64,000 nucleotides of DNA from Desulfuromonadales bacterium (GCA_024636295.1 JAGXHI010000042.1:7647-71646); one strand, 5' to 3'; shown: positions 19,466 to 41,140, counted from the stretch's first letter. The notes: a model not told the origin generated them from the letters alone. Numbers and translations: made by a program.

Positions 19466-19495
19466 GGCCAGGTCAGGCGGGACGACATCCCCGTC

Positions 19496-19885: not shown

Positions 19886-19916
19886 CAAGGAGGCCTCGGT
19901 GGGTTTCTGTTTAAAT

Positions 19917-20094: not shown

Positions 20095-20470
20095 ACTTTT
20101 TGGAACGGGCCAGTTGTGAATTTCTCAAGGCATTTATTTTATTGGCCAACCTGTCGATATTCTGGCGCAGCTTTTCGGTGTGCTCCAAGGTCGTAAATCC
20201 GATGTCTGATGCCAGGCTGATTTGGCATACTAACTCCATCAGCGAACTGTATGCTAGCTGCGAAAAGTGCCCCTGGTCTCTCAGGCTCGTCCTGCCGCTT
20301 CCCTCCGCCAGGTTCGAAGCCACCGATATTGCCGCCCTGTTCATCTGGCTCGTCAGGCCAAATCTCTCTTCCACCGGAAAGCTCCTCGTCAAGGCATATA
20401 CCGCCGTGACCAATCGCCGAGAGTCTTGCCAAACTTCGAGCTTCTCGAACGGAAAAAAGTACCGATGCAT
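20093..20470 (-). CDS. four-helix-bundle protein (TIGR02436 / 23S rRNA intervening-sequence protein family)
   Basis: Start MHRYFFPFEKLEVWQDSRRL, then SQMNRAAISVASNLAEGSGR and SSLMEL, the family signature. The ATG at 20470 is preferred over the track start at 20518, which lies inside the repeat. Confidence 0.85.
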   Translation of the reverse strand: MHRYFFPFEKLEVWQDSRRLVTAVYALTRSFPVEERFGLTSQMNRAAISVASNLAEGSGRTSLRDQGHFSQLAYSSLMELVCQISLASDIGFTTLEHTEKLRQNIDRLANKINALRNSQLARSKK

Positions 20471-20483
20471 TTTGTTCCCCCCT

Positions 20484-20670
20484 GTTGAACTGTTGAAAAC
20501 CGGTTGAAACCAATTCAACGATTCAACGCGCGAAGCGCAGTCAACGGTTCAACTGGTTTTTTTCGATTCAACGATTCAAAGCGCGAAGCGCATTCAACGG
20601 TTCAACTGGTTTTTTTACGATTCAACGATTCAAAGCGCGAAGCGCATTCAACGGTTCAACCGATTTTCAA
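20484..20670. repeat. right repeat block: direct-repeat copy DR-R, then two more 53/54-bp units
   Basis: DR-R (20484-20563) is about 94 percent identical to DR-L. Units start at 20513, 20566 and 20620. Each unit reads ATTCAACGATTCAA(C/A)GCGCGAAGCGCA(T/G)TCAACGGTTCAAC. The first two units then continue TGGTTTTTTT, while the third ends CGATTTTCAAC just before the carbamoyltransferase stop. Confidence 0.95.
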
Positions 20671-20672
20671 CA

Positions 20673-22532: not shown

Positions 22533-22544
22533 TCGTGGTCCTTT

Positions 22545-22694
22545 CTAGAAAATAGCGTAAATAAAGGGCGCAATCGCAGACCCTCCAGTCATGACGATCA
22601 AGACGCCAAAGAGCAATAAAACGGTTATGATCGGCAATAGCCAGAATTTTTTTCGCACATTGAGAAAACCCCAGAGGTCTTTTAAAAAATCCAT
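22545..22694 (-). CDS. DUF5989 (SxtK-like) 49-aa membrane peptide
   Basis: Too short for the ORF track. My own translation is MDFLKDLWGFLNVRKKFWLLPIITVLLLFGVLIVMTGGSAIAPFIYAIF. This matches the family pattern as I recall it (..FL..RKKFWL.PII..LLL.G.L....GSAIAPFIY..F). It ends 12 nt upstream of the carbamoyltransferase start. Confidence 0.8.
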   Translation of the reverse strand: MDFLKDLWGFLNVRKKFWLLPIITVLLLFGVLIVMTGGSAIAPFIYAIF

Positions 22695-22822
22695 CTGCTT
22701 AGCCTTTTGGAAGAAGATTTCACGAATCGCCGTGCATCGTCATGATCCGTATGCCATTGCCGGGAATCGCCGATCATGCAGATCCAGATCGACATTCCCG
22801 TGCGGATATTAAACGCGAAATA

Positions 22823-25036: not shown

Positions 25037-25231
25037 GCTCTCTAATCTGGCTTCTAATTCTGGTGCGATTTTAATGTGATTTTCAGGGACCGGGTAAACA
25101 GTGCATCATAACGCATCATGAAAGCAGTTTTCAACCTGTGGCGAAGAAATTCCTACCTGGTGGCTCTCCATTTCAAGTGAGGTCTCTTCGCACCAAATCA
25201 GGGACTTGTCGCTCATCCACGAGATGCGTCA

Positions 25232-26566
25232 TCACCAGACCTTCGGAAAAATCATTGCCCTGGTCATCATCCAGCCGGTTTTTCTCAGCGGTTTCAAGAG
25301 CAGACACGCACCGTGGATTGCAAACCAGTAGGAGATAAAGGTTGCGGCAACCGCCCCCATTGCGCCGTAACGAGGGATGAAAACGTAGTTCAGCGCGACA
25401 TTCAGAGCAGATCCCAAGGCGATGGAGATCAGGTTCACCCGGGTCCAGTTCTTCGAAAGGATGAAAACGTCGCGGGCGGCGCCAAGACTGGTGAATACGC
25501 CGGTCCAGATTAAAATGGCGAGCAGCGGAGCGGCATCCTGGTAGGCGGAAGAGAAAAGGATGGTGATGATCTCCTCGGAAAAAAAAGCCACGGGCAAAGC
25601 AACCCCATAGGCCAGCAAAGCCATCCAGTTGTAGAGCTTCTGCATCTGTGTGTAAAAAAGCTCCTCGGAGAAGGCTTCCGTCTTTACGATCATCGGAAAA
25701 AAGGAAGAACTGATGACCATCGGGATGAAGTACCATGCCTCCGAAATTCGCACAGCCACGGAATAAACTCCCAGCTCCTCGTTTCCGATCATGTTGCCGA
25801 TCATGATCTGGTCGATCCGCAGATAAATCATGGTCAACATCGTGGAAAAAACCAGCGGCCAGCTGTCACGCAACAACTTTTTGGCAACGGCCCGGCTGAA
25901 GCGCCAGGCCCTGATCGATAAGCCTCTGAAACGATAGACAATGAGCAAACCTATCGAGCCGACGATCGTCTCCGCCAGGCCGATCCAGGCAAAAGCGATC
26001 AGCGGCGCCTTCATCAGAATCAGTGCGATTTTAATGATATTGACCAGCATGAAAGCCGATGTCTTGGCGTAGACCGTATACTTCCACTGCATCTGGGATT
26101 CGAACCAGAATTCGATGGCGATGAAAGCCTGCACGATCATGCTGGCCCCCAGGATGCCCACCAGCCAGTGAATAAGACGATCATCGGGCCGGGCAAGCAG
26201 TATCATTGCCATCGTCAGGATGTAAGCGAGCACACCGGTAACCAGCATCAGGACGAACGACGTCCCAAGGACTTCATCCCTGCAGGCCGGGTCCTGGGCC
26301 ATGCGCCGGATGGAGATCGCATCCAGAGCCAGCATGGCGACAGGCGAAACGATCAACACCACGGCGAAGGCATAGCTGAGTTGGCCGAACAGCTGCGGGC
26401 CGAGGTAGCGGGCCAGCCAGACGCCGACCAGCAGGCCCACCACCTGGCGAGCCACCTGATCACCCATCATCCAGCCGGTATTGCCCATCGCTCGCTGAAG
26501 GTTCTGTCGGACATCAAGGTTTTTTCGGGTGGATTTCGACAACATTTTTGTCCAGTTCACATTCAA
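25232..26566 (-). CDS. oligosaccharide flippase (Wzx/MOP superfamily)
   Basis: 444 aa with about 12 TM segments and a polysaccharide-biosynthesis-protein-like N-terminus (GNTGWMMGDQVARQVVGLLVGVWLARYLGP). Confidence 0.85.
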   Translation of the reverse strand: MNVNWTKMLSKSTRKNLDVRQNLQRAMGNTGWMMGDQVARQVVGLLVGVWLARYLGPQLFGQLSYAFAVVLIVSPVAMLALDAISIRRMAQDPACRDEVLGTSFVLMLVTGVLAYILTMAMILLARPDDRLIHWLVGILGASMIVQAFIAIEFWFESQMQWKYTVYAKTSAFMLVNIIKIALILMKAPLIAFAWIGLAETIVGSIGLLIVYRFRGLSIRAWRFSRAVAKKLLRDSWPLVFSTMLTMIYLRIDQIMIGNMIGNEELGVYSVAVRISEAWYFIPMVISSSFFPMIVKTEAFSEELFYTQMQKLYNWMALLAYGVALPVAFFSEEIITILFSSAYQDAAPLLAILIWTGVFTSLGAARDVFILSKNWTRVNLISIALGSALNVALNYVFIPRYGAMGAVAATFISYWFAIHGACLLLKPLRKTGWMMTRAMIFPKVW

Positions 26567-26658
26567 CGAGATTCAGATCTCGAAGGACAACATGCACGGT
26601 TATGATAAAAGGAAGAATAAGATGGCAGCTGTTTGACAGGTACGTCAACCGCACTTTT

Positions 26659-27717
26659 TCACAGGAAGTCTCTGGCGATAATTTCCGCCAGTTCTTCCCC
26701 GGCGATTCTGTTTCCCAGCCGATTCCAATGGGCCCCATCACGGACTCTGACGATTTCCCCATTGGCTTCGGCCTGCTCCACACGCATCGATACGGACGGA
26801 TATGCGATGAAACCGGCTTTGCCGGCAAGGGATTGCCAAATTCGGAGTTCCTCCGGATCGTCGCTGCTCGCGGAAAAAGTCACAAGTTTCGTGGTGGGGG
26901 GGAGAGCCCTCTTCATTTCCGACATGAGAAATTGAGTGGTCACGACAGATGCGTCTTTTTGCGCGGCGATCTCTGCCTTTTGCTCTGGCGACCGGGCAGG
27001 GGCGAGCCCGTTGTATGCCTGGTAGGGCGGTGGGTAATAGCTGTTGTAGATTTTGTATTGCGCCGTGGATACCAAGGCATCGAGCGTCCTGAACAGCCTG
27101 GAGTATCTATGGAGAAGGATGTAGAGCTTATCTGCCGATAGCCTGTACCGGATCTCGCCGTCAACCCGGTAAGGACGAAAATTTTTCTGGCTGCGCGTAA
27201 TGCTCGGCCCCTCCAGGAAATAACTGTTATTGATAATATCGTTGTCGCAGTACTGCAGCACAAAAATGTCCGGCTTGATCTTCTTCGCAAATTCCTGGAC
27301 CAGCATCAGTTCCTGGAGCGTGCCGAACCCGCCCCCGCCGATGGCGAAGACTTCGACGGGCAGTTCTTTTTGGACGACACCGAAATACGCGTCCTGGTCC
27401 GAGGTGTTGGGGTCCCCCGTCCAGGAGTCGCCCACGAACAGAATGCGTTTTTTCTCGTTTCCGAGGTCGCCGAAAGCCCTGAAGCCGAATTCATTGGTCG
27501 AATAATCCGCGACATATTTTTCACCCGACTGATCGATCACCGGGATTCGGCTGGCGAAATTCCCCTTTGGCCGCCAGCCCAGGGCGGAATCGTATTCATA
27601 GACCACCGTCACCCCGAGCCATCGGGCCATCAACTCCCCCAATAGCAGCAGGGTGATGGCAAAGATCATCGTGGCTGCCGTGATGTACTTGATCTCCTGC
27701 CGCTTCATTTCTCCCAT
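26659..27717 (-). CDS. membrane-anchored SGNH/GDSL-family protein
   Basis: An N-terminal TM segment, then ILFVGDSWTG (block I), FAIGGGGFG and QYCDNDIIN. The exact start (27747, 27717 or 27708) is unresolved. Confidence 0.78.
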   Translation of the reverse strand: MGEMKRQEIKYITAATMIFAITLLLLGELMARWLGVTVVYEYDSALGWRPKGNFASRIPVIDQSGEKYVADYSTNEFGFRAFGDLGNEKKRILFVGDSWTGDPNTSDQDAYFGVVQKELPVEVFAIGGGGFGTLQELMLVQEFAKKIKPDIFVLQYCDNDIINNSYFLEGPSITRSQKNFRPYRVDGEIRYRLSADKLYILLHRYSRLFRTLDALVSTAQYKIYNSYYPPPYQAYNGLAPARSPEQKAEIAAQKDASVVTTQFLMSEMKRALPPTTKLVTFSASSDDPEELRIWQSLAGKAGFIAYPSVSMRVEQAEANGEIVRVRDGAHWNRLGNRIAGEELAEIIARDFL

Positions 27718-27807
27718 CTCAAAATTTAGCTGTTTGCGTCGCCACAATACACCAGGCCCTTGAGAAAATACAAGAATTGCAAGGGAAAAGAAAAAGGGGA
27801 AAGTGCC

Positions 27808-27839
27808 AAAAAAAGAGGGCGGGGGACAAGCCCCCGCCC
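27808..27839 (-). terminator. strong intrinsic terminator after the 12-haem cytochrome gene
   Basis: The minus strand reads GGGCGGGGG-CTTGT-CCCCCGCCC followed by TCTTTTTTT. Confidence 0.85.
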
Positions 27840-27882: not shown

Positions 27883-30213
27883 CTACGGCCTGGTCAGACC
27901 AGTGGTGTCCCCATCGAGATCCGTGATGGCGTCGAACATGACCTGGCGAGCAAACCGGCTGTTGTGTGCCCATGAGCCACCATGACCGTGCACGCCATTC
28001 GGGCCGTGAACAGCGCCGTCTTCGTACGTGAAGATTTTCCAGGCGGTGGCCGCCTTGGCAGCCGCGAGGCTCGGACCGACATTAGTACGGCCTTCGAGAT
28101 AGGTGGCCAGCATTTCCAGCCGCGTAGCATCGTCGGCAGCGCCTTGCAGATCATCGATGAAGGTCTGCAGCGGGGGATACAGGTCGGCCGTTCCATCAGC
28201 CGTCAGGTAGACCCCCAAAAGGGTTTCGAGGAGACGTACGCTGAAGGCCTCGGTGCGAGCCTGGAGGGCAGAGGCATCGGCAAAGGCACCTGCCTGGTGG
28301 CAACCTGCGCAGTCGGCGCTGGTGACCATCTTGTTCTGGACGACGTTGTTGCCGTCGGTGTCGTGAACATTGTGGCAAGTGACGCAGCCGAAATCGGCAG
28401 CCGCGGTTCCCGCTACAGCGCCGCCGCCATGCACGAACTTGCCGGCATAGGTACCGTCATAGGTGGGTACCATGCCGGACTCGTCACCAAAGAGAGTGGC
28501 GAAGCCCGGAGCATAGTGCAGGTACGCGAATGTACGATTCTCCGTTCCAACATAGACTTCGTCGATATCGTCCCCATTCAGGTCGTCTTCGTATTCGTTG
28601 ACCAGGAGGGCTTCATCCGCGGGGGTCGGAGCCGGGGTGCGTCCTTTGTGGCATTCGAAACAGATCTGGTTCACACCGAGATCGGCAACGTCAACAACAA
28701 CTCCACTGTTGAAGGCAAACTCATGCCCTTCGGCAAAGGCTCGCACCGCGGTGGGATCTCCGAGAACCGGATTTCCTTCTGCATCCTGTCCAACCTGCTC
28801 CAGCTCATGGCAGGTGCGGCAGGAGATGGGATCGGTAGTGCGGGCAGTAGGCATCGATCCGCCGCGTACCCAGGTTACGAAGGATTCCTGGCCGTTATGG
28901 CAGGGCTGGCAGCCGTGACCCAGGGCATCGCCGAGGTAATTGGTGTGGAAATCGCCAATGCCTTCGGCGAAGCTGGCGGCCTGTGCGGAACCGCCTTCAC
29001 CTTCCACCTTGTTGGCGCTGTGCGGATCGTGGCAGACGGTACAGGCGTCCGGGTTGGCGGCGTTGATGTTGTAGCCGGCCACCTCAACGTCGGTCACAGC
29101 AACAGGATCGATCTGAGTTTCGTCTTCTTCAACGGCGGCGATACGGCCGACGACCTGTCCGGCAAAGTGGGTGTCGGAGAAATTGCGACCGCCGTGCGGG
29201 GTGTTGTCATGGTAGAAAACCTGGGTCTCATAGACCACGCGAGGGGTCTCGCGCAGGGTCCCGTCCGCATTGTAGAACGGGGTCAGTTCGACTTCCTTGA
29301 AGGTCGAGGTGTCGGCATCCACAAGGCTGGTGGCGCTGTAAGCGTCGGTCAGCTCGTACTCGTACAGCCCCTCATGCTCCAAGGAGGGAGTTGGATTCAG
29401 ATCGATCATGTGGCAGCTGGTGCAGAGATTGAACTCGGCCGAGTAGACGACGACGCCGTCGGCATCAACGGTGTCTTCCGTACGCAGATCGGCTTTGTGC
29501 GGGTCATGGCAGGTGTTGCACTGCATGTCCAGGAGGCCTGTTTCTGGCTCCATCGACCAGAAAGGAACGGTATCGATGGAGTATTCTTCAAACAACTGCT
29601 GCACGCTGATCTTGCGGCCCGACTCGATGTTGAAGACGCCGCCCTGATGGCTGTGACAGGCTGCGCAGAACCCGCCGCCGTGGTCGCTGTTGCCATGGCC
29701 GCTGGCGGCATAGCGGGAGTAGATCTGCTCATTGAACGGATGATGGTCCAGGTGAGCCAGTTCACCCTCGCCATTGTGGCACTGGCCGCATACAGCGGCA
29801 GTGGGCGCCGTATTGGCGACTTCTTCCTGCAGAGGCAGATTGGCGTGATTGCTGCCGGCGCCATGGCAGTCTTCACAACCGACAACCGTGCCCGTGGGGG
29901 TGACACCGAAGGCCGGCCCGATCTCGTTCATGGCGCCGGAGGGGTTGTGACAAGCGGTCGCACAGCTGGCGATCGAATGACTCGAGTTCATCGCATGCTT
30001 GCTATCCACCCATTCCGTAGCCGCCGTACTCGTCCCGTGGCAGGTCGAACAAGCCAGCAGGCCTGCTTGCTCCGCGGCGGGCAGCTGGAAATCCTGGCCG
30101 GGCTGGCCATCGATTCCGTCGTCTCCATCATCGCCCGAACATCCGGCCAATGCCAGCGTACACGCCAGCAGACCGAAAACGAGCAAACGAAGCCATTTCC
30201 TTCCTTCTCTCAT
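27883..30213 (-). CDS. multihaem c-type cytochrome lipoprotein, 12 CxxCH plus 1 CxxxCH
   Basis: Lipobox LALAGC. I counted 12 CxxCH motifs (CSTCH, CEDCH, CGQCH, CAACH, CNTCH, CTSCH, CTVCH, CQPCH, CRTCH, CFECH, CVTCH, CAGCH) plus CATACH. A short GDDGDDGIDGQPGQD tract follows the lipid Cys. Confidence 0.92.
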   Translation of the reverse strand: MREGRKWLRLLVFGLLACTLALAGCSGDDGDDGIDGQPGQDFQLPAAEQAGLLACSTCHGTSTAATEWVDSKHAMNSSHSIASCATACHNPSGAMNEIGPAFGVTPTGTVVGCEDCHGAGSNHANLPLQEEVANTAPTAAVCGQCHNGEGELAHLDHHPFNEQIYSRYAASGHGNSDHGGGFCAACHSHQGGVFNIESGRKISVQQLFEEYSIDTVPFWSMEPETGLLDMQCNTCHDPHKADLRTEDTVDADGVVVYSAEFNLCTSCHMIDLNPTPSLEHEGLYEYELTDAYSATSLVDADTSTFKEVELTPFYNADGTLRETPRVVYETQVFYHDNTPHGGRNFSDTHFAGQVVGRIAAVEEDETQIDPVAVTDVEVAGYNINAANPDACTVCHDPHSANKVEGEGGSAQAASFAEGIGDFHTNYLGDALGHGCQPCHNGQESFVTWVRGGSMPTARTTDPISCRTCHELEQVGQDAEGNPVLGDPTAVRAFAEGHEFAFNSGVVVDVADLGVNQICFECHKGRTPAPTPADEALLVNEYEDDLNGDDIDEVYVGTENRTFAYLHYAPGFATLFGDESGMVPTYDGTYAGKFVHGGGAVAGTAAADFGCVTCHNVHDTDGNNVVQNKMVTSADCAGCHQAGAFADASALQARTEAFSVRLLETLLGVYLTADGTADLYPPLQTFIDDLQGAADDATRLEMLATYLEGRTNVGPSLAAAKAATAWKIFTYEDGAVHGPNGVHGHGGSWAHNSRFARQVMFDAITDLDGDTTGLTRP

Positions 30214-30397
30214 TCTTTTACTCCTTAAAAAAGAGGGTGTTGAAATCGCCGGGTGAGCAGGTGATTCCGTGGCAGACTACCCGGCAAAGTCTTTAGTTTG
30301 AAACCGCCACTGACCCATTCAGCAGCAGTTCCATGCCATAGCCAAAATTCAGAGGCGGCACAACCGGCCCTCCTCTATCGATAAAGTAAATAACGTC

Positions 30398-31453
30398 CTA
30401 CTCCAAAGATCCGCTGTGCGGATGATGGCAGCTGGTGCAGGCTTCCTCATCGGCCGCATTGATGCCATAGCCGGAAATACCGTCGGCGGGGCTGGCAAAA
30501 TGCGTGTCCCAGATCAGCAGGCTGTTAGGGTCGTCCAGGGGGTTGCCCGCTGTGCCATGAAACGGTAGCCGCGCCCTATCGAGTTCATAGGTGAAGGCCT
30601 GGGAGACTGCGTCAAAATCAGCCGTCAAAAAGACCTGATGGCAGGTTGTACAGAGATTGAACTGCCGAGAATACTGCACGACAGTCGCACCGTCCGGAAC
30701 GGCAGTAGTCGCCGTCGACCGCAGTTCGCCCGAGTGGCTGTCGTGACAGGTCCGGCACTGCACCGTCGACGGATCTGCCGGCGGAGTGGCGCCTGCCAGG
30801 ACAGCGCTTATCTGACTGGCGGTAAATCCGGCCGTATCTTGCGCGAAGCGGCGGAAGCCCTCATCGGAATGGCAACGGCTGCAGACCGCGAAGGCCCTCC
30901 CCTGCAGTGTGGCTGCGTGAACTCCAGATGTATAATCTTCCAGAATCCCATTGGCGAATTCTCCCGCATGCGCGGCAGGTCCGGAGGGCAGACTGGTGTG
31001 ACATTCTCCGCATAGTTTGAAATCCGGGGTTGGCCGCGGCAGCGGCCCGACGCCGAAGTGTTCGCCGCCAGCGCCATGGCAGGATTCACAGCTGATCGCA
31101 GCCAAGCCGTTTTCGGGGACATTTACCGGGTCGATGAAACCCTCCAGAATCACCCCGTCGCCAAGAGGGTCATGGCAGTTCAGACAGAAAGCGGAAGAGG
31201 CCGCGTTGATGGCGGTGCTGTGAATAACATGCGGACTGCCGAGGTAGGCATCGACCTGTTCAGCGTCGATACCCAGACCGTCATGACAGCTGATGCAGCG
31301 GTCGGAGCCTATATAGCCGATTCCGTTTTCATCGACCCCCAGAAATTCCGGCCCGAGATCCACCCCGTCCTCATCCGAGCGACTGCTGCCGCAGGCGGTC
31401 AGGGCGAGGATCATTCCGGCCAGAAGAATCAAGCGTAGTGTTCCATGATGCAT
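30398..31453 (-). CDS. octahaem c-type cytochrome lipoprotein
   Basis: Start moved to MHHGTLRLILLAGMILALTAC (ATG at 31453) because the track ORF overlaps the upstream gene. It has 8 CxxCH motifs. Confidence 0.9.
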   Translation of the reverse strand: MHHGTLRLILLAGMILALTACGSSRSDEDGVDLGPEFLGVDENGIGYIGSDRCISCHDGLGIDAEQVDAYLGSPHVIHSTAINAASSAFCLNCHDPLGDGVILEGFIDPVNVPENGLAAISCESCHGAGGEHFGVGPLPRPTPDFKLCGECHTSLPSGPAAHAGEFANGILEDYTSGVHAATLQGRAFAVCSRCHSDEGFRRFAQDTAGFTASQISAVLAGATPPADPSTVQCRTCHDSHSGELRSTATTAVPDGATVVQYSRQFNLCTTCHQVFLTADFDAVSQAFTYELDRARLPFHGTAGNPLDDPNSLLIWDTHFASPADGISGYGINAADEEACTSCHHPHSGSLE

Positions 31454-31499
31454 TAATCTATCCTCCAGGACATTGCCGGTCTGGCGCGGCCGGTGAAAA

Positions 31500-32351
31500 T
31501 CAGTGGCACCTGCGGCAGGTCTTACCGTTGGTGGCGTCTTCCAGACGGTCTGCCCGATCCCCCCATCCCCTGCCGTGGGGATTGAAACCAGGGCTCCCCC
31601 CCCTGTCACTGTGACACCGCAGGCAGACGTCGCCGTCGGGATGACAGGCCTGGCAGGTCGCCAGGTTCTTGCGCGCCTCGCGTTTATGGTCGCCGGCCCA
31701 GGTATGGAAGTCGGGGGCGACGGAGCCGGGGGTGTGGCAGGCATCGCAATTGGCGGTAACATCAATGGGGATTCCCGCGGACCCTTCGATTTCGGGATGG
31801 GCGGCGACCCCCATCGTCAAGCCGAGGTCGAAGGTGCGACGGTGCGACGGACCGCTGGACCGACCGGCTCTGAAATCGTTGTGGCAATCACTGCAGAAAC
31901 GGGCCTCGTGGCAGCTGGAGCACAGCTGTGGATCGGTGCGTGCGGCGATCGGATGGGTGATGTGGAAATCCGAGCGGTGCACGTTGATCATGTTGTTGCC
32001 CCATTCGCCGAATTCGTCGGCCGGTCGCGACTTGTGGCACTGCAGACAGTCGACCTGCTGATGGCAGGCGGCGCAATCGAAATCGCTCATCTTGGCAAAG
32101 GGCCGATGATTGAGCGCCCAGACGGGACCGTGGGTCTTCAGGCCGGGGAATTCAATCTCTTTCAAGAATTCCTGCTCATGACATTCGAGGCAAACTGCGG
32201 TATCGGGAACAATCGTTTCCGTCCCTTCCACATGACAGGTGGCGCAGGACATATCGGCCAGAATCTCGAGATGCGTCTCGTGATCGAAGGTTATCGCCAC
32301 GGCGGGGATGGCCCAAACCGATAGGGTCAAAAGAAATAACAGACGCTTCAT
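31500..32351 (-). CDS. periplasmic decahaem c-type cytochrome (cytochrome c3-like packing)
   Basis: Signal peptide MKRLLFLLTLSVWAIPAVA|IT with no lipobox. It has 10 CxxCH motifs in about 283 aa, the last at the extreme C-terminus (CRRCH). Confidence 0.9.
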   Translation of the reverse strand: MKRLLFLLTLSVWAIPAVAITFDHETHLEILADMSCATCHVEGTETIVPDTAVCLECHEQEFLKEIEFPGLKTHGPVWALNHRPFAKMSDFDCAACHQQVDCLQCHKSRPADEFGEWGNNMINVHRSDFHITHPIAARTDPQLCSSCHEARFCSDCHNDFRAGRSSGPSHRRTFDLGLTMGVAAHPEIEGSAGIPIDVTANCDACHTPGSVAPDFHTWAGDHKREARKNLATCQACHPDGDVCLRCHSDRGGSPGFNPHGRGWGDRADRLEDATNGKTCRRCH

Positions 32352-32381
32352 ATCCAGGCTCCTTATCATCAATCGATTCCC

Positions 32382-33596
32382 TTAAAAGTAGATATTCAGG
32401 CGCACGCGGCCGCGGTAGTACTCGTCCCACAGGTCGCTCTCGACTCTCTCTACTTTTCCCTGGACGTTTATCGTCTTGCTCAGGAACAAGGTGCCGTCGG
32501 CCCAGATGCGGCTGCTGGTGGTCTCGTCGTCATCATCGTCGAGGCGGCGCTCCAGCACGTCAATATGGGCTCCGACTCCGGCTTCAATGCTCTGCCCGAA
32601 GAGGTAGGCTGCACGAACCTTCAAGCCCTGCAGATCCTGGCCCTCCTCGTCATCCCGATAGGTCCCCACCAGATAGCCGGAGAAACGCTCGCTTCGGATT
32701 TTCTCGATCCCCGCTTCGAAAACATTGGCATCGTCGAAAGACTGATAGATTTCACGCGAAACCCGGCCGAAGACGCGCAGACGGGGATCGATACGATAGG
32801 TAAGCTCCGCCATCACCTCCTGGTACTCGTCAACGGCGAAAACGGAATAGATGCTGGTTGCGGAGAAGACAGGAAGACTGTACAGGTATTCGGTCCGCAG
32901 GGACCACTTCGGACTACCGTGATATCTGAAACCACCCAGGAAGTAACTGACGCGATCCTCGAGCCAGTCATATTGCGCCTCGGAGTAAAGCTGCATCAGA
33001 TTTTTGAAATCATAGGCGGCATCCAAACCGATCAGTCTGTTGCCGACATCGCCGTCGTCCCACTTCTGAAGATAGGAGACCCCAAGGTTCAGACTGGTCA
33101 GGAAATGTCCGGAAACCTCAATGCCGGCGACCACGTCCTCGGCATTGTAGCCCTCATAAAAGGAGACGTCGCCGCCGCCGAACAGTTCGACCTCCAATGG
33201 CCCGAGTTCGCGATAATTGAGCCGGATGCCGTCCATCAAGGAGGCGCCGGCGGTAGTGGAGATAAACTGCCGACCCAGACGGAAATCCAGATTTTTCAGC
33301 AGATCGTTCTTTTCCAGATAGGCATAGAACAATTCGCTGTCGACATCGACTTCGTCGGCGAGATCATCAGCCAGACGACCATAACATCTGAAGTGCAGGC
33401 CTTCGATCCCAAGATCCTGCACGTTGAGCAGCAGGTACTGGTAGACAGGTACTGCCGTATTCTCGTCGGAATCATCAAACCATTCCAATTCCGTGCTGGA
33501 CCGTCCGGACACCGTGGCGCCGATCGCGACGCCGACCGGCCACAGGGCCAGAAGGGCCATGGCAGTGCAGAAGGAAATCCGCCGCCAGATTTTCAT
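32382..33596 (-). CDS. outer-membrane porin-like beta-barrel (putative cytochrome conduit sheath)
   Basis: Signal peptide ending AIG|AT, an amphipathic strand pattern throughout, and a C-terminal RVRLNIYF (terminal Phe). It ends 9 nt upstream of the decahaem gene. Confidence 0.85.
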   Translation of the reverse strand: MKIWRRISFCTAMALLALWPVGVAIGATVSGRSSTELEWFDDSDENTAVPVYQYLLLNVQDLGIEGLHFRCYGRLADDLADEVDVDSELFYAYLEKNDLLKNLDFRLGRQFISTTAGASLMDGIRLNYRELGPLEVELFGGGDVSFYEGYNAEDVVAGIEVSGHFLTSLNLGVSYLQKWDDGDVGNRLIGLDAAYDFKNLMQLYSEAQYDWLEDRVSYFLGGFRYHGSPKWSLRTEYLYSLPVFSATSIYSVFAVDEYQEVMAELTYRIDPRLRVFGRVSREIYQSFDDANVFEAGIEKIRSERFSGYLVGTYRDDEEGQDLQGLKVRAAYLFGQSIEAGVGAHIDVLERRLDDDDDETTSSRIWADGTLFLSKTINVQGKVERVESDLWDEYYRGRVRLNIYF

Positions 33597-34241
33597 GTTG
33601 CCTCCGTGATTAAAACTACATCGGTCACTGAAAGTTAAAAAATTCAGGCTTCACGTTTCGGACCGGATGCGACACAACGATAAAAATACGAGATCTATAT
33701 CAAATTTAACGGGAAAAGTGAAATAAAAAAAATTTTCTTGTTGTCATCCAGGAGGAAAACAGGCTGCATGTTTCACGCCCAAGGGGAGATTACAACACCA
33801 GCGTGAAAATATACTAAAAAAATACTGCGGGAGCAAGGTTCAATCTTTCCTTTCTGTTAAACAACTGTATCTGAATCGCAATTTTCTTCACAAGACAATT
33901 CTGCAAATAAATTGGCCGCCTTTAATTTCTATTGCAGTTTATACTGGGAATAAATCATCTCTGCGGTCCGTTCCCTTTCCACCTCGACAGCCTGTTTGCA
34001 GAAAAGCACCTTGCCGGCATTTTTTTCAGGGGCCGCCAGGGCACCCCCCGTAAACCTCAAAGTACGACTTCAGGGCTTCTGCGCCCTGTCAATTTTCCAC
34101 CGCCTGGCGGCGCTCCGAAGACCACGCCGAGGAGATCGTCTTTGCACAAAATCCGCACGGGCCGCAAAAAGAGGATCGGATTATTTGGTCGGGTTATTAA
34201 AAAGGGGGGAAATACAAAGAACACACGAGTTCATATCGGAG

Positions 34242-34258
34242 AGCAGTTAATGTGCCAA
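34242..34258 (-). promoter_or_regulatory. candidate sigma-54 (-24/-12) promoter
   Basis: The minus strand reads TTGGCAC-ATTAA-CTGCT with GG-N10-GC spacing. It lies about 645 nt upstream of the barrel gene start, and no ORF of 60 aa or more lies between them. Confidence 0.4.
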
Positions 34259-34446
34259 AACCGGCAAAACTCAGGAATTCACCTTATGTGGACCGAAGGC
34301 TTTGAAATCACAATGGCCTTGGAAATCAGTAGAGAAAGCGTCTGTCCATGATCATTGCCAATCCGCTGGTTTTTCAGCCATCCCCCCTTCAGGTACCGCC
34401 AAATAACTGAATCCGGCTGCGCCATTTCCCCACCGCTCCATAAAAG

Positions 34447-34518
34447 GACGCAAAAAAGGCGAACCCCGAAAGGCCCGCCTTATCATTCGAGAGGCGAGGT
34501 GGGCCGAAGCCCACCTCG
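34447..34518 (-). terminator. two hairpins after the decahaem gene; the second is followed by a T-run
   Basis: The minus strand has CGAGGTGGGC-TTCG-GCCCACCTCG, then AAGGCGGGCCTTTCGGGGTTCGCCTTTTTT. Confidence 0.7.
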
Positions 34519-34529
34519 GATTACTTCCC

Positions 34530-36239
34530 CTATTCAAAGAATGACATGATTTTTTCGATCACGGTGTCAAGAACCCCTTCGCCATCCTCGAGCAGGTAAC
34601 CGAAGGCCTTGGTGTGCTGGTTGAACGAAGTCAGCTCTCCTGCCTGATCCTCGTTGATCCATTCGGCCCGGTGACACGCGCCGCAGGCTCTTGAACCAGG
34701 CCCGGTGACGTAGCTCGGCACGGTCCCGATATTCCTGTCGATCGTATCATTGGGATCCGATGCCGAAAGGATGCCGGACAGCGACCTGGACTGATCCGGC
34801 ACATTGAAGGTTCCCGCGACGTGGCAGGACTCGCAGTTGGTAATTCCATGGGTGGGATACGGGAAGTTGATGTGGTGCTCGTATTCCAGAGCTTCCACGG
34901 GATCGGTGAAATCGATGTCACCGAAGTCAAAATACTGCATGGAATGGATCGAATGCGCATAGGAATCGATGGACCTGGACTGCATCTCCAGGTGGGATCC
35001 GCCGCTCTTGGTGATGTGGCACAGCCGGCAGACGACGATATTCCCGCCCCTGTCGGGCGAATGGAAGGTCGTTGAGAGCGCGTCGTGACAGTTGTTGCAT
35101 CCCTCTTCGACTTTCACGATGTCGCCATAGAACCCATCATCGAAAGCATTGGCGCCCAGATCAAAGGTGCGGGAGGGAGCGACAAGGGCGATGACCTCTC
35201 CGTCCGCATTCTGCAGTTCGGGCATGACCGCGATTTCGGCGCGCCTGACGGTTCCGTCGGCCATCATGTCCGCCCACATGGAGAGATCCGCCGTCACTTC
35301 CCAGCTGCCATTGGCGGCGGATACGGTCGTGAACCTCGGATTGACGGTTTCACCATCTACGGGAAATTCCAGCAGCCTGTTCCGTTCAGCGTCACGTTCG
35401 TGAGGACCGACGATGTAATCCTTGGTGTCGTAGCCGTACAGTCCGACCAACACGGTGGGTACGATATTCACGGCATCGAGAGCACCCGCCGTTCCGGTCG
35501 CACTGAAGTTGATGGTCAGGATGTTGCCCGCCAGGGACGCTCCATCGATGGAGACGCTGATCAGGTCGGAATACCGGGTGCCCTGGGCATCGGCGTAGAT
35601 GATCGGGTCATAGCCGTTGTGAAAATCACTGAACTGGTGGCAGTCACTGCACACCATATCCGGCGTATGAAAGCCGGGAAGAAGGGTTTCCAGAGCAAGG
35701 CCGGTGGTATCCACCGTGAAATTGCCATCGCCATCCGGCAGATCCGTTCCACCCGTTATTGGATGGCAACTCTGGCAGGTCTGGTACACGAAGTTCTCGT
35801 CCGCCAGGATGATATCCAGTTTGCCTTCGTGGCAGGTGGCGCAGTTGGCCATGGACTGGGGATAGGGGAATTCCATGGCGTGCGAGCGGTGCACGTCCTC
35901 CATGACGCTGGTGTTGTACTGGTATTGCGCGAAGTCGGCGCCCAGTTCCGTCTCCAGCCAGGCGACCGCTGCATCCTCGTCTACTTCCGCCCTTGCCAGA
36001 AATTCGGCAGCTACTTGGGGATTATCCACCAGAAGCTGCCATTCGAAATGGCCCCCTGCTCCATTGTCCAGATGACAGGCCTTACAGGTATAAAAATCGG
36101 TTGCAGGGTCGTTTTCAACCTGGGCCAGGATGTTGCCGTGCTTGAGATAAGGCACGCTGTGGCATTTTTCGCAGCCTGCGTTCGTTGCGGCGGGGACATA
36201 ATCAACGCCATTGGGTCCTGTCTCGAGCAGGGCCGCATT
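34530..36239 (-). CDS. decahaem cytochrome, C-terminal 569 codons (frame 2 of a frameshifted gene)
   Basis: 9 CxxCH motifs in two clusters (5 and 4), separated by a beta-rich segment of about 160 aa. The track ORF has no signal peptide and overlaps the upstream ORF by 146 nt in another frame. Confidence 0.8.
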   Translation of the reverse strand, partial: NAALLETGPNGVDYVPAATNAGCEKCHSVPYLKHGNILAQVENDPATDFYTCKACHLDNGAGGHFEWQLLVDNPQVAAEFLARAEVDEDAAVAWLETELGADFAQYQYNTSVMEDVHRSHAMEFPYPQSMANCATCHEGKLDIILADENFVYQTCQSCHPITGGTDLPDGDGNFTVDTTGLALETLLPGFHTPDMVCSDCHQFSDFHNGYDPIIYADAQGTRYSDLISVSIDGASLAGNILTINFSATGTAGALDAVNIVPTVLVGLYGYDTKDYIVGPHERDAERNRLLEFPVDGETVNPRFTTVSAANGSWEVTADLSMWADMMADGTVRRAEIAVMPELQNADGEVIALVAPSRTFDLGANAFDDGFYGDIVKVEEGCNNCHDALSTTFHSPDRGGNIVVCRLCHITKSGGSHLEMQSRSIDSYAHSIHSMQYFDFGDIDFTDPVEALEYEHHINFPYPTHGITNCESCHVAGTFNVPDQSRSLSGILSASDPNDTIDRNIGTVPSYVTGPGSRACGACHRAEWINEDQAGELTSFNQHTKAFGYLLEDGEGVLDTVIEKIMSFFE

Positions 36240-36894
36240 AGGGGAATTGCACCTGCCTGACGCGAGAGGGAGGCAGTGTGTCGACCAGCCCGTCGTAGCC
36301 ATATACGACGACAAGGCCATCCTGGGCGTCGAGATTGCCATTGGCGCTCTGGGCGTTGGTGCTCGTGCATCCGCCGGCGCCATTGTCGCTCAGAGTCCCC
36401 TTTATGGCCATCCGTGCGGCGGGATCCATCACGAAACTTTCACCGTCGTACCCGACCCAGTAAATGTTGAGGTTCTGGACCTGGGTGCAATCAAAAGCTG
36501 CGCCATTCTTGGTCATATCGAAGGTGACGATGTCATTGGCGCTGTCGTTCGTGTAGTTCACATTCGACACTTCAATCACGCCCGCCTGATTCAATTGATC
36601 ATAGAACGCCTGGTGTTCATCGCCGGCGCCGGCATGGCAGATTGAACAGGATTCAGGCTCGACAGCCGCAGCGGTCGGACCTTCCCCACCTTCAGGGCCT
36701 TCAGGGCCTTCAGGGCCTTCAGGGCCTTCAGGGCCTTCAGGGCCTTCAGGGCCTGTGGGTCCGGCAGGTCCTTCAGGTCCGGCGACGCCATCACGCCCGT
36801 CATTCCCATCGTCACCTTCACAACCGGTGAAAACAAGGGAAAAAACCAAGAGCATGGCCAATACGGCATACCGCAAAAAGCGACTCCTCTTCAT
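36238..36894 (-). CDS. decahaem cytochrome, N-terminal 218 codons (signal/lipobox, collagen-like tract, first haem, beta-rich domain)
   Basis: The ATG at 36894 lies 6 nt after AAAGGAG. Lipobox LVFTGC, 16 Gly-X-Y triplets and CSICH are present. It stops at a TAA directly after a C4 run. Confidence 0.8.
   Translation of the reverse strand: MKRSRFLRYAVLAMLLVFSLVFTGCEGDDGNDGRDGVAGPEGPAGPTGPEGPEGPEGPEGPEGPEGPEGGEGPTAAAVEPESCSICHAGAGDEHQAFYDQLNQAGVIEVSNVNYTNDSANDIVTFDMTKNGAAFDCTQVQNLNIYWVGYDGESFVMDPAARMAIKGTLSDNGAGGCTSTNAQSANGNLDAQDGLVVVYGYDGLVDTLPPSRVRQVQFP
36689..36751. repeat. 9-bp tandem repeat (CCTTCAGGG)x7, with degenerate copies on both sides
   Basis: Read directly from the sequence. It encodes (GPE)n on the minus strand. 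Confidence 0.97.
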
Positions 36895-37552
36895 CTCCAT
36901 CTCCTTTGTTGCCTCCACCACCCAAATGTTTTGGCTGCACGAATTTGAATCATGAACGATTCACACCTGATATTTACAAATCACCCCCTTTCAAATTCAT
37001 AAGGTGAACCGGGCTTGTTTGAGACTTTTTAAATGTGCGGACTTGAATAAACCAAATAAAATGAATAGCATCAAATGTACCAAATGTTTAAGACCTTAAA
37101 TGAACATGCCGAATCGATGGAAGGATTTGGATTCGCTCTGATTTTCTGGGGCGGAAACTCCGGGAAGCAGTCAATTAGGTGTTTTGATGGAGAGTTCTTT
37201 CAGTTAAATAGCTTACTGTCTGCGTCAAATGACTGAACTCTGCTCCAACCGATATCGAAGGCTACATTTGTTCTCTGATTCCCCCTCAGGACAGGAATTT
37301 TGACCCCTACTTTTTCGGAATCCGGTTCATGAATCTCGCAAATCAATTCGTCAGCACCCAACGGCATCGCCCCTCCCGGGCGAGGGGCGGCCAAGGGATG
37401 ACTTGCTGGTTTATGTCCGAAAACCGGAAGTATTTTCGTTTCGGATGGATACGGGTAAAGCGGAAAAACGAAGTGGGGGGAAATTTGAAAAGAGCGATGA
37501 GACCGTGAAGGATTTTACCATGGCAAAACATTGTGCATGAAACAGCTGTCGC

Positions 37553-40922: not shown

Positions 40923-41140
40923 GCCTCGACTATGCCACCATGGGCCGGAGCGGAGCAAGACCTTTTCCGCCGCCTCTCATCTCAGACCTGCAATGGCGAC
41001 CTCTTTCCAACCCGCTTCATTAATCCTTTCTTTATTCCCATGCTTCATTCATTGCATAACACCCGACGACTGATATACTTTGGCTGTTTTTACCGGGCTT
41101 TTCGTCCCCTGCGGACCAGGGATATTTTTCGGACGACGTT

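What the first reader, a model, noticed from the sequence alone, without database searches (positions are those of the whole stretch)
27883..33596. Porin-cytochrome (Pcc/Ext-type) outer-membrane electron conduit cluster with a non-canonical 10 / 8 / 12(+1)-haem composition
Four co-directional genes are packed with gaps of 9, 46 and 184 nt and end at a strong terminator.
- A 404-aa signal-peptide beta-barrel ending in RLNIYF.
- A soluble periplasmic cytochrome with 10 CxxCH motifs.
- A lipoprotein cytochrome with 8 CxxCH motifs.
- A 776-aa lipoprotein cytochrome with 12 CxxCH plus one CATACH.

The order barrel -> periplasmic cytochrome -> lipoprotein cytochrome matches ombB-omaB-omcB of Geobacter sulfurreducens. 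The haem counts differ from the Geobacter model, which has an 8-haem OmaB and a 12-haem OmcB. There are also two lipoprotein cytochromes, a composition closer to ExtABCD. In total 30-31 haems would be threaded through or onto one small barrel. This is my best candidate for an uncharacterised extracellular electron transfer system variant.
Basis: partly seen in the sequence, partly recalled or inferred. Interest (0 to 1): 0.72.

Follow-up and report, generated by a model that had tools for sequence, protein, structure and literature searches.

The report
Group II porin-cytochrome electron conduit operon
This is a real four-gene operon for a membrane barrel and three multi-haem cytochromes that most likely carries respiratory electrons across the outer membrane, but it belongs to a conduit family described in 2014 and is a fairly ordinary new member of it.

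Summary
Four co-directional minus-strand genes at 33596-27883 encode:
- a 404-aa outer-membrane barrel;
- a Sec-exported cytochrome with 10 CxxCH;
- a lipoprotein with 8 CxxCH;
- a 776-aa lipoprotein with 12 CxxCH plus CATACH.

A strong terminator follows.

The barrel (AlphaFold pLDDT 91, 22 strands) is 50% identical to the Desulfurivibrio alkaliphilus AHT2 barrel. By position and neighbours that protein is DaAHT2_2270/DA_2299, a "Group II" Pcc porin of Shi et al. 2014. That group is reported as 25-30% identical to OmbB.

In 69 of 71 related loci the next gene has exactly 10 CxxCH. The third gene most often has 13. So 10/13 is this subgroup's norm, not an anomaly.

The 8-haem protein is the N-terminal 8-haem core of that 13-haem lipoprotein. 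The 776-aa protein is a diverged long paralogue. Its CATACH aligns with a canonical CxxCH, and its closest orthologue has CAAACH.

A 2025 Nature paper already lists the D. alkaliphilus cluster as porin / OmaC-like 10x / OmcC-like 8x. It also lists that porin among genes upregulated with ferrihydrite.

Verdict: new member of a known kind, with a duplicated outer lipoprotein. It has never been characterised biochemically. Interest is low to moderate.

The parts
32382..33596 (-). Outer-membrane beta-barrel (404 aa) of the OmbB-like Pcc Group II type. It has an SPI signal peptide and a C-terminal RLNIYF beta-signal.
   Evidence: AlphaFold2 on a 50-sequence alignment gave pLDDT 91.3 and 22 strands with short loops. 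More than 769 homologues, all unnamed. 50% identity (E=6e-124) to D. alkaliphilus AHT2 P0294, which is DA_2299 and by position DaAHT2_2270. No Pfam or NCBIfam family matches.
31500..32351 (-). Periplasmic decahaem c-type cytochrome (283 aa, 10 CxxCH). It has an SPI signal peptide and no lipobox. It is the predicted barrel-inserted subunit (OmaB/OmaC-like).
   Evidence: Motif count. The exact 283-aa form is in public collections. 52% identity (E=8e-99), with all ten motifs aligned, to D. alkaliphilus DA_2300, labelled 'OmaC-like 10x'. A 10-CxxCH gene directly follows the barrel in 69 of 71 related loci.
30398..31453 (-). Octahaem lipoprotein cytochrome (351 aa, LALTA|C lipobox). It is the short form of the family's OmcB/OmcC-like outer lipoprotein and the likely extracellular cap of the conduit.
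   Evidence: 8 CxxCH. It aligns over its full length with the N-terminal 8 haem sites of the 13-haem lipoproteins, at 45-55% identity. 44% identity to D. alkaliphilus DA_2301, labelled 'OmcC-like 8x'. 63% identity to the same-position gene of L001.
27883..30213 (-). Lipoprotein cytochrome (776 aa, LALAG|C lipobox) with 12 CxxCH plus one CX3CH (CATACH), so 13 predicted haems. It is a diverged long paralogue of the same OmcB-like family and has a good Shine-Dalgarno sequence (AAGGAG).
   Evidence: Counts. In alignment A3, CATACH occupies the column of a canonical CxxCH (haem site 2) in six of the other eight sequences. The closest orthologue, the fourth gene of L022 (42% identity by BLAST), has CAAACH there. 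27% identity (E=1e-48) to a canonical 13-haem lipoprotein.
27817..27839 (-). Intrinsic terminator that closes the operon.
   Evidence: A stem of 9 G-C pairs with a 5-nt loop, followed by TCTTTTTTT.
33597..34529 (-). 933-nt non-coding leader or promoter region upstream of the barrel gene. Its function is unknown.
   Evidence: No ORF of 80 aa or more on the minus strand. No Rfam match, either at gathering score or at E<=1, apart from noise over the upstream gene's terminator. The upstream gene has its own terminator at 34481-34456.
34530..36921 (-). Associated but separately terminated gene: an OmcA/MtrC-family decahaem lipoprotein with a collagen-like (GPE)n linker. Here it is split into two overlapping ORFs, 36921-36238 (1 haem) and 36383-34530 (9 haems), so it is probably frameshifted.
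   Evidence: ORFs. TIGR03507 OmcA/MtrC gave E=9e-31 (107 bits, below the 209-bit cut-off), and PF22113 and PF01391 Collagen also matched. The two frames overlap by 146 nt. Comparable MtrC-like decahaem genes with collagen-type linkers lie in or beside the orthologous clusters of D. alkaliphilus (L085), D. versatilis (L081), L032 and L043.

Best explanation
The operon encodes a trans-outer-membrane electron conduit of the Geobacter-type porin-cytochrome (Pcc) family. Specifically it belongs to the Group II branch found in Desulfuromonadales and Desulfobulbia (Desulfurivibrio).

Proposed mechanism, inferred by analogy with OmbB-OmaB-OmcB and MtrCAB:
- The 22-strand barrel forms a sheath in the outer membrane.
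- The Sec-exported decahaem cytochrome inserts into its lumen from the periplasm. There it accepts electrons from periplasmic carriers.
- Its haem chain passes them through the membrane to an OmcB-like lipoprotein cytochrome on the cell surface. The positional orthologue for this role is the 8-haem short form.
- The 13-haem long paralogue acts as a second or alternative surface cap, or as a downstream acceptor. It widens the contact with insoluble acceptors such as Fe(III) or Mn(IV) oxides or electrodes.

Shown here: gene structure, haem motifs, export and lipidation signals, the barrel fold, homology to the D. alkaliphilus Pcc cluster, and conserved synteny.

Inferred: insertion of the cytochrome into the barrel, topology of the lipoproteins, direction of electron flow, and the acceptor.
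For: - Barrel fold: 22 strands, pLDDT 91.3. The theoretical C-alpha diameter is about 39-40 A, against about 47 A for the 26-strand MtrB.
- Barrel, 10-haem and 8-haem proteins are 50%, 52% and 44% identical to the three consecutive D. alkaliphilus AHT2 genes at CP001940 2641258-2644889.
- PMC12545173 lists those genes as porin DA_2299 / OmaC-like 10x DA_2300 / OmcC-like 8x DA_2301. It lists the porin among genes upregulated with ferrihydrite.
- That AHT2 barrel sits where DaAHT2_2270 is expected and is followed by a periplasmic cytochrome, as DaAHT2_2271 is. Shi et al. 2014 place DaAHT2_2270/2271 in Pcc Group II, at 25-30% (barrel) and 28-39% (periplasmic cytochrome) identity to OmbB/OmaB and their Geobacter homologues.
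- Synteny: barrel, then 10-haem gene, then lipoprotein multihaem gene in almost all of about 70 related loci. This holds even where barrel identity is 31%.
- More distant barrel relatives also sit beside multihaem cytochromes.
- Signal peptides and lipoboxes fit the periplasmic and surface assignments.
- There is no terminator or stable structure between genes 3 and 4.
Against: - No protein of this subgroup has been purified, localised or deleted.
- The D. alkaliphilus porin's induction is modest (log2FC 1.3-2.0, with two comparisons not significant).
- I could not obtain OmbB, OmaB or OmcB sequences. The link to the characterised Geobacter complex therefore rests on published identity tables and labels, not on a comparison made here.
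- No complex model could be made. The single-sequence model of the decahaem protein was useless (pLDDT 32.7).
- The 184-nt gap before the 776-aa gene leaves room for separate regulation.
Confidence: 0.8

Rival explanations
1. The core conduit is only the barrel, the decahaem protein and the 8-haem lipoprotein. The 776-aa cytochrome would then not be a subunit. It would be a separate surface or released cytochrome that takes electrons from the conduit, as OmcA does from MtrC, and it may have its own regulation.
For: - The 8-haem gene holds the conserved third position and is the positional orthologue of the family's lipoprotein.
- The 776-aa gene follows a 184-nt gap and has its own strong Shine-Dalgarno sequence.
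- Only a few relatives carry a comparable fourth gene (L022, probably L001).
- Otero et al. describe frequent swapping of outer lipoproteins in conduit clusters.
Against: - The gap holds no terminator or significant RNA structure, and the only strong terminator follows the 776-aa gene.
- The 776-aa protein keeps the same 8-haem core that presumably docks the family's lipoprotein on the barrel.
Confidence: 0.35
2. The conduit works mainly in the inward direction, or on non-metal substrates. Examples are electron uptake from Fe(II), from a cathode or from a partner cell, or reduction of S(0)/polysulfide or selenium oxyanions at the cell surface. In this reading it is not dissimilatory metal-oxide reduction.
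For: - Group II clusters occur in sulfur-cycling and selenate-respiring bacteria: D. alkaliphilus, D. acetoxidans and Desulfurispirillum indicum. Shi et al. proposed extracellular selenate/selenite reduction for the D. indicum cluster.
- Homologous Mtr-type conduits work in both directions (established knowledge for MtoAB and PioAB).
- Sequence gives no information on direction.
Against: - The D. alkaliphilus porin DA_2299 is listed among genes upregulated with ferrihydrite as electron acceptor.
- Most carriers are Desulfuromonadales, which are typical metal and electrode reducers.
Confidence: 0.15
3. It is a reduced Mtr-type (MtrAB-like) system rather than a Geobacter-type Pcc. In this reading it is a decahaem MtrA analogue in a shortened MtrB relative, with the upstream OmcA/MtrC-like decahaem lipoprotein as its MtrC.
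For: - The periplasmic partner has ten haems, like MtrA.
- The barrel-family profile's best PDB hit is MtrB (6r2q_B, E=3.7e-4).
- 2 of 50 family members weakly hit PF11854 MtrB_PioB.
- An OmcA/MtrC-family gene lies upstream here and inside the orthologous clusters of D. alkaliphilus and D. versatilis.
Against: - The window's barrel does not hit PF11854.
- It has 22 strands and 404 aa, against 26 strands and about 700 aa for MtrB.
- The decahaem protein does not match the DmsE/MtrA model TIGR03508.
- Foldseek ranks generic barrels above MtrB.
- The published tables group its orthologues with OmbB/OmaB.
- Weak profile hits between beta-barrels are often compositional.
Confidence: 0.07

Closest known systems
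Desulfurivibrio alkaliphilus AHT2 Pcc cluster DA_2299-2301. By position DA_2299 and DA_2300 are DaAHT2_2270 and DaAHT2_2271, which Shi et al. 2014 place in Pcc Group II. Transcriptome data are in PMC12545173.
   Same: - Same gene order: barrel, then 10-haem periplasmic cytochrome, then 8-haem lipoprotein.
- 50%, 52% and 44% identity respectively.
- An OmcA/MtrC-like decahaem lipoprotein with a collagen-like linker is associated with both.
   Different: - The window adds a 13-haem long paralogue as a fourth gene.
- Its MtrC-like gene lies upstream, is separately terminated and is split. In AHT2 that gene follows the 8-haem gene.
- AHT2 also has a 9+1-haem cytochrome, a TPR protein and a CHRD protein upstream, next to T2SS genes.
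OmbB-OmaB-OmcB (and OmbC-OmaC-OmcC) of Geobacter sulfurreducens, the only biochemically characterised Pcc complex (Pcc Group I).
   Same: - Same gene order and the same three roles.
- The barrel is about 400-450 aa.
- The outer subunit is a lipoprotein of about 750 aa with 12-13 haems.
- Reported homology to Group II: barrels 25-30% identical, periplasmic cytochromes 28-39%.
- The D. alkaliphilus orthologues are labelled OmaC-like and OmcC-like.
   Different: - The periplasmic subunit has 10 haems rather than 8.
- The long lipoprotein has 13 rather than 12.
- There is an extra short 8-haem lipoprotein.
- It is a sister group, not an orthologue.
- Homology to the Geobacter proteins was not tested directly here.
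Canonical three-gene Group II clusters of Desulfuromonas, Geothermobacter, Desulfuromusa, Pelovirga and Geopsychrobacteraceae, for example D. versatilis DESUT3_30650 and its two downstream cytochrome genes, and DESUT3_38410-38460.
   Same: - Barrels are 55-70% identical.
- The 10-haem partner is 53-60% identical.
- The lipoprotein has the same 8-haem core.
   Different: - Most have a single long 12-13-haem lipoprotein where the window has the short 8-haem form plus a diverged long copy.
- Only L022 (Trichloromonas sp.), and probably L001, share the two-lipoprotein layout with the CX3CH paralogue.
ExtABCD of G. sulfurreducens.
   Same: One barrel, one periplasmic multihaem cytochrome and two lipoprotein cytochromes, one of which has 12 haems.
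   Different: - The gene order is extA (periplasmic), extB (barrel), extC, extD.
- The haem counts are 12/5/12, and the barrel is predicted to have 18 strands.
- Shi et al. report 17-19% identity between GSU_2644 and the Group II barrels.
MtrCAB of Shewanella (PDB 6R2Q).
   Same: - The working principle: a decahaem cytochrome sheathed by a barrel and capped by a surface lipoprotein cytochrome.
- There is weak profile similarity between the barrels.
   Different: - 26 strands and about 700 aa, against 22 strands and 404 aa.
- No family-model match for the window's barrel or its decahaem protein.

Membership tests
Pcc (Geobacter-type porin-cytochrome) family, Group II of Shi et al. 2014 | Outer-membrane beta-barrel of about 400-460 aa with 18-22 predicted strands. 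| tested here: met
   AlphaFold2 model with pLDDT 91.3 and 22 strands, a signal peptide and a C-terminal Phe. Shi et al. give a range of 18-22.
Pcc (Geobacter-type porin-cytochrome) family, Group II of Shi et al. 2014 | Barrel homologous to a recognised Group II member (DaAHT2_2270, Dace_0362 or Selin_2482). | tested here: met
   50% identity (E=6e-124) over the whole mature barrel to the D. alkaliphilus AHT2 protein at CP001940 2641315-2642688. PMC12545173 calls this gene porin DA_2299. That it is DaAHT2_2270 is inferred from its genome position and from its neighbour matching DaAHT2_2271. The locus tag itself was not seen.
Pcc (Geobacter-type porin-cytochrome) family, Group II of Shi et al. 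2014 | Adjacent, co-directional periplasmic multihaem cytochrome (signal peptide, no lipobox) that co-varies with the barrel. | tested here: met
   The 283-aa 10-CxxCH protein starts 30 nt after the barrel gene. It is 52% identical to DA_2300, labelled 'OmaC-like 10x'. A 10-haem gene follows the barrel in 69 of 71 related loci.
Pcc (Geobacter-type porin-cytochrome) family, Group II of Shi et al. 2014 | One or more lipoprotein multihaem cytochromes in the same cluster. | tested here: met
   Lipoboxes LALTA|C and LALAG|C, with 8 and 12+1 haem motifs. Homology to DA_2301, labelled 'OmcC-like 8x'.
Pcc (Geobacter-type porin-cytochrome) family, Group II of Shi et al. 2014 | Detectable sequence homology to the characterised OmbB, OmaB and OmcB of G. 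sulfurreducens. | not tested
   No G. sulfurreducens sequence could be obtained. The last homologue search landed on a Zixibacteria clade instead. Published values for Group II against OmbB/OmaB are 27-28% and 28-36%.
Pcc (Geobacter-type porin-cytochrome) family, Group II of Shi et al. 2014 | [quoted passage not shown] | not testable with these tools
   This needs purification with proteoliposome assays, or genetics. The only indirect support is the transcript data for the D. alkaliphilus orthologue.
MtrCAB / MtoAB / PioAB | MtrB/PioB-family barrel (PF11854; about 700 aa, 26 strands). | tested here: not met
   The window's barrel does not hit PF11854, and only 2 of 50 family members hit it weakly. 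It has 22 strands and 404 aa. The profile hit to 6r2q_B has E=3.7e-4 and covers about 115 positions only.
MtrCAB / MtoAB / PioAB | MtrA/DmsE-family periplasmic decahaem cytochrome (TIGR03508). | tested here: not met
   The 10-haem protein has no TIGR03508 match at E<=0.1.
ExtABCD | Gene order extA (12-haem periplasmic), extB (barrel), extC (5-haem lipoprotein), extD (12-haem lipoprotein), with components more than 40% identical (criterion of Otero et al.). | tested here: not met
   The order here is barrel first, and the haem counts are 10/8/13. Sequence identity to the Ext proteins was not tested directly. Shi et al. report 17-19% for ExtB against the Group II barrels.
OmcA/MtrC decahaem family (upstream gene 36921-34530 only) | TIGR03507 match above its cut-off, with ten haems in the two-pentahaem-domain architecture. 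| tested here: inconclusive
   The 617-aa fragment scores 107 bits against a 209.3-bit cut-off but spans profile positions 161-626. The two fragments together carry 1+9=10 CxxCH. The gene is split by a frame change.

The most novel reading that the evidence does not exclude
The short 8-haem and long 13-haem OmcB-like paralogues share one docking core. They might bind the same 22-strand barrel and decahaem core either interchangeably or at the same time. That would give a modular or branched assembly of up to 31 haems, whose surface module is swapped to suit the acceptor.

In addition, the weak profile match to MtrB could mean that Pcc and Mtr barrels share an ancestor. The literature states that the two systems are unrelated.
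Probability: 0.2. Interest if true: 0.5.

Novelty: new member of a known kind. Interest (0 to 1): 0.25.

Why it matters
The Group II Pcc branch is abundant. This search found more than 769 barrel homologues, spread across Desulfuromonadales and Desulfobulbia. All are annotated as hypothetical, and none has been studied biochemically. The branch is probably a main outer-membrane route for metal and electrode respiration in marine and subsurface Desulfuromonas-like bacteria and in Desulfurivibrio.

This locus adds one more example. It also shows cleanly how the surface subunit evolves: an 8-haem core, with or without a 5-haem extension, that is duplicated and diverges. That helps in choosing constructs for structural work. 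It does not open a new class of system.

Tried and rejected
- **Direct comparison with OmbB, OmaB, OmcB and Ext proteins.** No G. sulfurreducens sequence was reachable.
  - The one genome scan returned only closer relatives.
  - The third and last homologue search, seeded with a distant barrel representative (P0166), hit a Zixibacteria clade.
  - Five contig look-ups of other distant representatives gave unnamed metagenome contigs, and a sixth gave L084.
- **Alignment too diverse.** A 50-sequence alignment could not seed the locus search. A 20-sequence one worked.
- **AlphaFold2 of the decahaem protein from a single sequence.** pLDDT was 32.7, which is unusable. Homologues taken from loci may not be submitted, so no alignment could be given.
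- **Foldseek of the barrel against the PDB.** Only generic large barrels matched: FimD/PapC ushers, AlgE and OprD-type. There was no specific relative.
- **Riboswitch or sRNA in the 933-nt leader.** Nothing was found. A c-di-GMP or cGAMP riboswitch, as used for Geobacter cytochrome genes, was the idea being tested.
- **Terminator or attenuator in the 184-nt gap before the 776-aa gene.** None was found, and the fold z-score was +0.9.
- **A second 404-aa ORF at 41090-42304.** It is a spurious antisense ORF over a histidine kinase gene.
- **D. acetexigens 'MtrAB' (Shaw et al. 2025) as the same family.** Rejected. Their MtrA, TRO83921, is equated with OmcI, which the cytochromome survey (PMC11492766) groups with DmsE/MtrA. 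The window's decahaem protein does not match that family.

Full report
**1. The observation**

All four genes lie on the minus strand:
- barrel, 33596-32382 (404 aa);
- a cytochrome from TTG 32372 or ATG 32351 to 31500;
- a cytochrome from 31453 to 30398 (351 aa). The 455-aa form given by the ORF listing is an over-extension that overlaps the previous gene;
- a 776-aa cytochrome, 30213-27883.

A regex count gives 0, 10, 8 and 12 CxxCH, plus one CATACH in the last protein.

The N-termini read as follows:
- an ordinary signal peptide for the barrel;
- an ordinary signal peptide for the 10-haem protein (AIPAVA|ITF);
- lipoboxes for the other two (LALTA|C and LALAG|C).

The barrel ends in RLNIYF. 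A nine-G-C-pair hairpin followed by a T-run sits at 27839-27817.

The 283-aa, 351-aa, 404-aa and 776-aa forms are all present verbatim in public protein collections, on a 74.8-kb contig. One member of the 10-haem cluster is annotated as coming from a Desulfuromonadales MAG.

The only correction is that the first intergenic gap is more likely 30 nt than 9.

**2. The barrel**

The barrel has no Pfam or NCBIfam family and no PDB sequence match.

It does have more than 769 homologues, all called hypothetical. There are also 362 representative clusters at E<=1e-3 in the 50%-identity library.

AlphaFold2 on a 50-sequence alignment gave pLDDT 91.3 and 22 beta-strands. The periplasmic turns are short and the outer loops are modest.

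The standard barrel-geometry formula gives a C-alpha diameter of about 39-40 A for 22 strands, against about 47 A for the 26-strand MtrB. The diameter is an inference from strand number, not a measurement on the model.

From general knowledge, 22-strand TonB-dependent receptors enclose a plug domain of about 150 residues. A haem chain wrapped in polypeptide is therefore sterically plausible.

Foldseek found only generic large barrels.

**3. Related loci**

A scan of one genome per GTDB species gave 80 loci. They come from:
- Desulfuromonas, Geothermobacter, Desulfuromusa, Pelovirga, Trichloromonas and Geopsychrobacteraceae;
- on the Desulfobulbia side, Desulfurivibrio and relatives.

I scripted an ORF and haem-motif census of these loci.
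- In 69 of the 71 loci where a gene follows the barrel, that gene has exactly 10 CxxCH and about 275 aa.
- The two exceptions have 7 CxxCH.
- The third gene is a protein of about 650-1000 aa with 13 CxxCH in 30 loci and 12 in 10 loci. The remaining 14 have other counts: 3 with 10, 3 with 8, 4 with 15-17, and 4 with 11 or fewer.
- A metagenomic relative whose barrel is only 31% identical keeps the same pattern of barrel, 10 haems, 13 haems.

Hence 10/13 is the norm for this branch, not a departure.

**4. Link to the known Pcc family**

I searched with the Desulfurivibrio dismutans barrel (L077). The search returned the D. alkaliphilus AHT2 protein P0294 at 90% identity.

P0294 lies at CP001940 2641315-2642688 and is followed by 307-aa and 372-aa cytochromes. 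These carry 10 and 8 CxxCH.

The supplement of PMC12545173 (Nature 2025) lists exactly these coordinates:
- porin DA_2299;
- OmaC-like 10x DA_2300;
- OmcC-like 8x DA_2301.

It also lists the porin among multihaem cytochromes and porins upregulated with ferrihydrite. The fold changes are modest: log2FC 1.3-2.0, with two of six comparisons not significant.

The position (85% along the chromosome) and the adjacent periplasmic cytochrome fit DaAHT2_2270 and DaAHT2_2271. Shi et al. 2014 (PMC4245776) place those two in Pcc Group II, together with D. acetoxidans Dace_0362/0363 and Desulfurispirillum indicum Selin_2482/2481.
- Group II barrels are 25-30% identical to OmbB and its Geobacter homologues.
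- Group II periplasmic cytochromes are 28-39% identical to OmaB and its homologues.

Skennerton et al. 2017 already used DaAHT2_2270 as a reference porin.

The window's proteins compare with these three AHT2 proteins as follows:
- barrel: 50% identical, E=6e-124;
- 10-haem protein: 52% identical, E=8e-99;
- 8-haem protein: 44% identical, E=9e-83.

The same paper by Shi et al. states several ranges for Pcc clusters:
- 2-9 genes per cluster;
- periplasmic subunits with 5-14 haems;
- outer subunits with 1-15 haems;
- atypical CX3-15CH motifs common in the outer cytochromes.

The window's counts fall within all of these.

**5. The two lipoproteins**

BLAST against all ORFs of the related loci and alignment A3 show three things.

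The 8-haem protein matches, end to end, the N-terminal eight haem sites of the family's 13-haem lipoprotein. Identity is 45-55% to the L082 and L022 proteins. It is therefore the short form of that protein and sits in its conserved position. The same short form occurs in L001 (63% identical), L064, L077 and AHT2.

The 776-aa protein keeps the same 8-haem core plus the 5-haem C-terminal extension, but it is diverged (27% identity, E=1e-48, to a canonical 13-haem protein). Its closest relative is the fourth gene of L022 (Trichloromonas sp., 42% identity by BLAST). A fragment at the contig end of L001 is 67% identical over 126 residues.

In the alignment, CATACH occupies the column of a canonical CxxCH (haem site 2) in six of the other eight sequences. 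The L022 orthologue has CAAACH there. It is therefore very likely a genuine CX3CH haem site. That makes 13 haems for this protein and 31 for the operon.

**6. Rest of the neighbourhood**

Upstream, beyond a 933-nt non-coding stretch with no Rfam match, lies an OmcA/MtrC-family decahaem lipoprotein gene.
- It has its own terminator at 34481-34456.
- It has a collagen-like (GPE)n linker.
- It is split into two ORFs, with 1 and 9 CxxCH, that overlap by 146 nt in different frames. This is a frameshift or an assembly error.

Similar MtrC-like genes accompany the orthologous clusters in AHT2 (L085), D. versatilis (L081), L032 and L043.

Downstream is an exopolysaccharide locus (flippase, carbamoyltransferase, GDSL/TPR protein).

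There is no terminator or significant RNA structure between genes 3 and 4.

**7. Mechanism**

The principle is shown experimentally for OmbB-OmaB-OmcB in proteoliposomes (Liu et al. 2014, as cited in PMC4245776). It is shown structurally for MtrCAB (PDB 6R2Q).

By that analogy:
- the barrel sheathes the decahaem protein;
- the decahaem protein relays periplasmic electrons to a surface lipoprotein cytochrome;
- the 8-haem protein is the most likely cap, because it is the positional orthologue;
- the 13-haem paralogue is either an alternative cap or a downstream acceptor.

Everything about assembly, topology, direction and acceptor is inference.

**8. Rival readings**

- The 776-aa protein may be a separate surface cytochrome rather than a subunit.
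- The conduit may work inward, or on sulfur or selenium substrates. Group II occurs in S(0) and selenate respirers.
- It may be a reduced Mtr system. The best PDB hit of the barrel profile is MtrB at E=3.7e-4. However, the window's barrel misses PF11854, and its decahaem protein misses TIGR03508.

**9. Limits**

I could not bring any G. sulfurreducens sequence into the session. The step from Group II to OmbB/OmaB/OmcB therefore rests on published tables and labels.

More distant relatives of the barrel are also flanked by multihaem cytochromes with 12-13 haems. These include a clade containing Zixibacteria MAGs and other unnamed metagenome contigs. This supports a broad porin-cytochrome superfamily but adds no named reference.

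**10. Verdict**

This is a genuine, intact Pcc-type conduit operon. It is a new member of the already described Group II branch. Its one distinctive point is a duplicated OmcB-like lipoprotein, in a short and a long form.

No member of the branch has been characterised experimentally, so it remains a reasonable target. It is not a new kind of system, and its haem counts are not anomalous. Interest: 0.25.

Noticed in passing
window 34530-36921 (-): An OmcA/MtrC-family decahaem lipoprotein gene with a collagen-like GPEGPE... linker after the lipobox. It is split into two overlapping ORFs in different frames: 227 aa with 1 CxxCH, and 617 aa with 9 CxxCH. The frame change must lie between 36389 and 36238, and no homopolymer is evident there. 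It is either a pseudogene or an assembly error.
   Followed up: partly
window 2426-2576 (-): A cobalamin riboswitch (RF00174, 87.4 bits, E=3e-20). It is the only Rfam match at gathering score in the whole window.
   Followed up: no
window 33597-34529: An unusually long (933 nt) non-coding region upstream of the barrel gene, AT-rich near the gene. It has no Rfam match and no consensus sigma-70 promoter on the coding strand.
   Followed up: partly
window barrel residues 236-255 (about 32832-32891, -): EYLYSLPVFSATSIYSVFAV is the most conserved stretch of the barrel family, yet the model places it in a non-strand segment between strands 13 and 14 (a short helix, with pLDDT dropping to 72-76). By strand parity it would be extracellular loop 7. 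It is a candidate contact site for a cytochrome or a lumen constriction.
   Followed up: no
barrel family profile A1 vs PDB: The best PDB sequence hit of the family profile is MtrB of Shewanella baltica (6r2q_B, E=3.7e-4, about 115 positions). Two of 50 family members also weakly hit PF11854. This may hint at a distant Pcc-Mtr barrel relationship, which the literature denies, or it may reflect beta-barrel composition only.
   Followed up: partly
L085 (D. alkaliphilus CP001940 2633315-2650688) and L082 (D. versatilis): Type II secretion genes (GspG-N) lie immediately beside the orthologous Pcc clusters in both complete genomes. In Shewanella, T2SS exports the surface cytochromes. No T2SS gene was seen among the window ORFs that I scanned.
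   Followed up: no
L081 (D. versatilis AP024355 4326707-4347921): One barrel gene is followed by two nearly identical 272-aa decahaem genes, each with its own lipoprotein cytochrome (750 aa with 12 haems; 584 aa with 10 haems), and then a 777-aa MtrC-like decahaem gene. This looks like a tandem duplication of the cytochrome pair without a second barrel.
   Followed up: no
L008 and L011, about 2.2-4.5 kb upstream of the barrel: Three consecutive cytochrome ORFs with 12, 20 and 12 CxxCH lie upstream of the Pcc module in two Desulfuromonas MAGs.
   Followed up: no
L087-L092 and the hit list: Barrels 23-30% identical to the window's barrel occur in a clade that includes Zixibacteria MAGs, in a Tectomicrobia MAG and in unnamed metagenome contigs. 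Those examined are always beside 12-13-haem cytochromes. The porin-cytochrome superfamily therefore reaches well beyond Desulfobacterota.
   Followed up: partly
window 18284-27747 (-): An exopolysaccharide-type locus lies directly downstream of the conduit operon. It includes a Wzx-like flippase, a carbamoyltransferase, a GDSL/TPR protein, a GNAT-type protein and a 362-aa protein with no Pfam match.
   Followed up: partly
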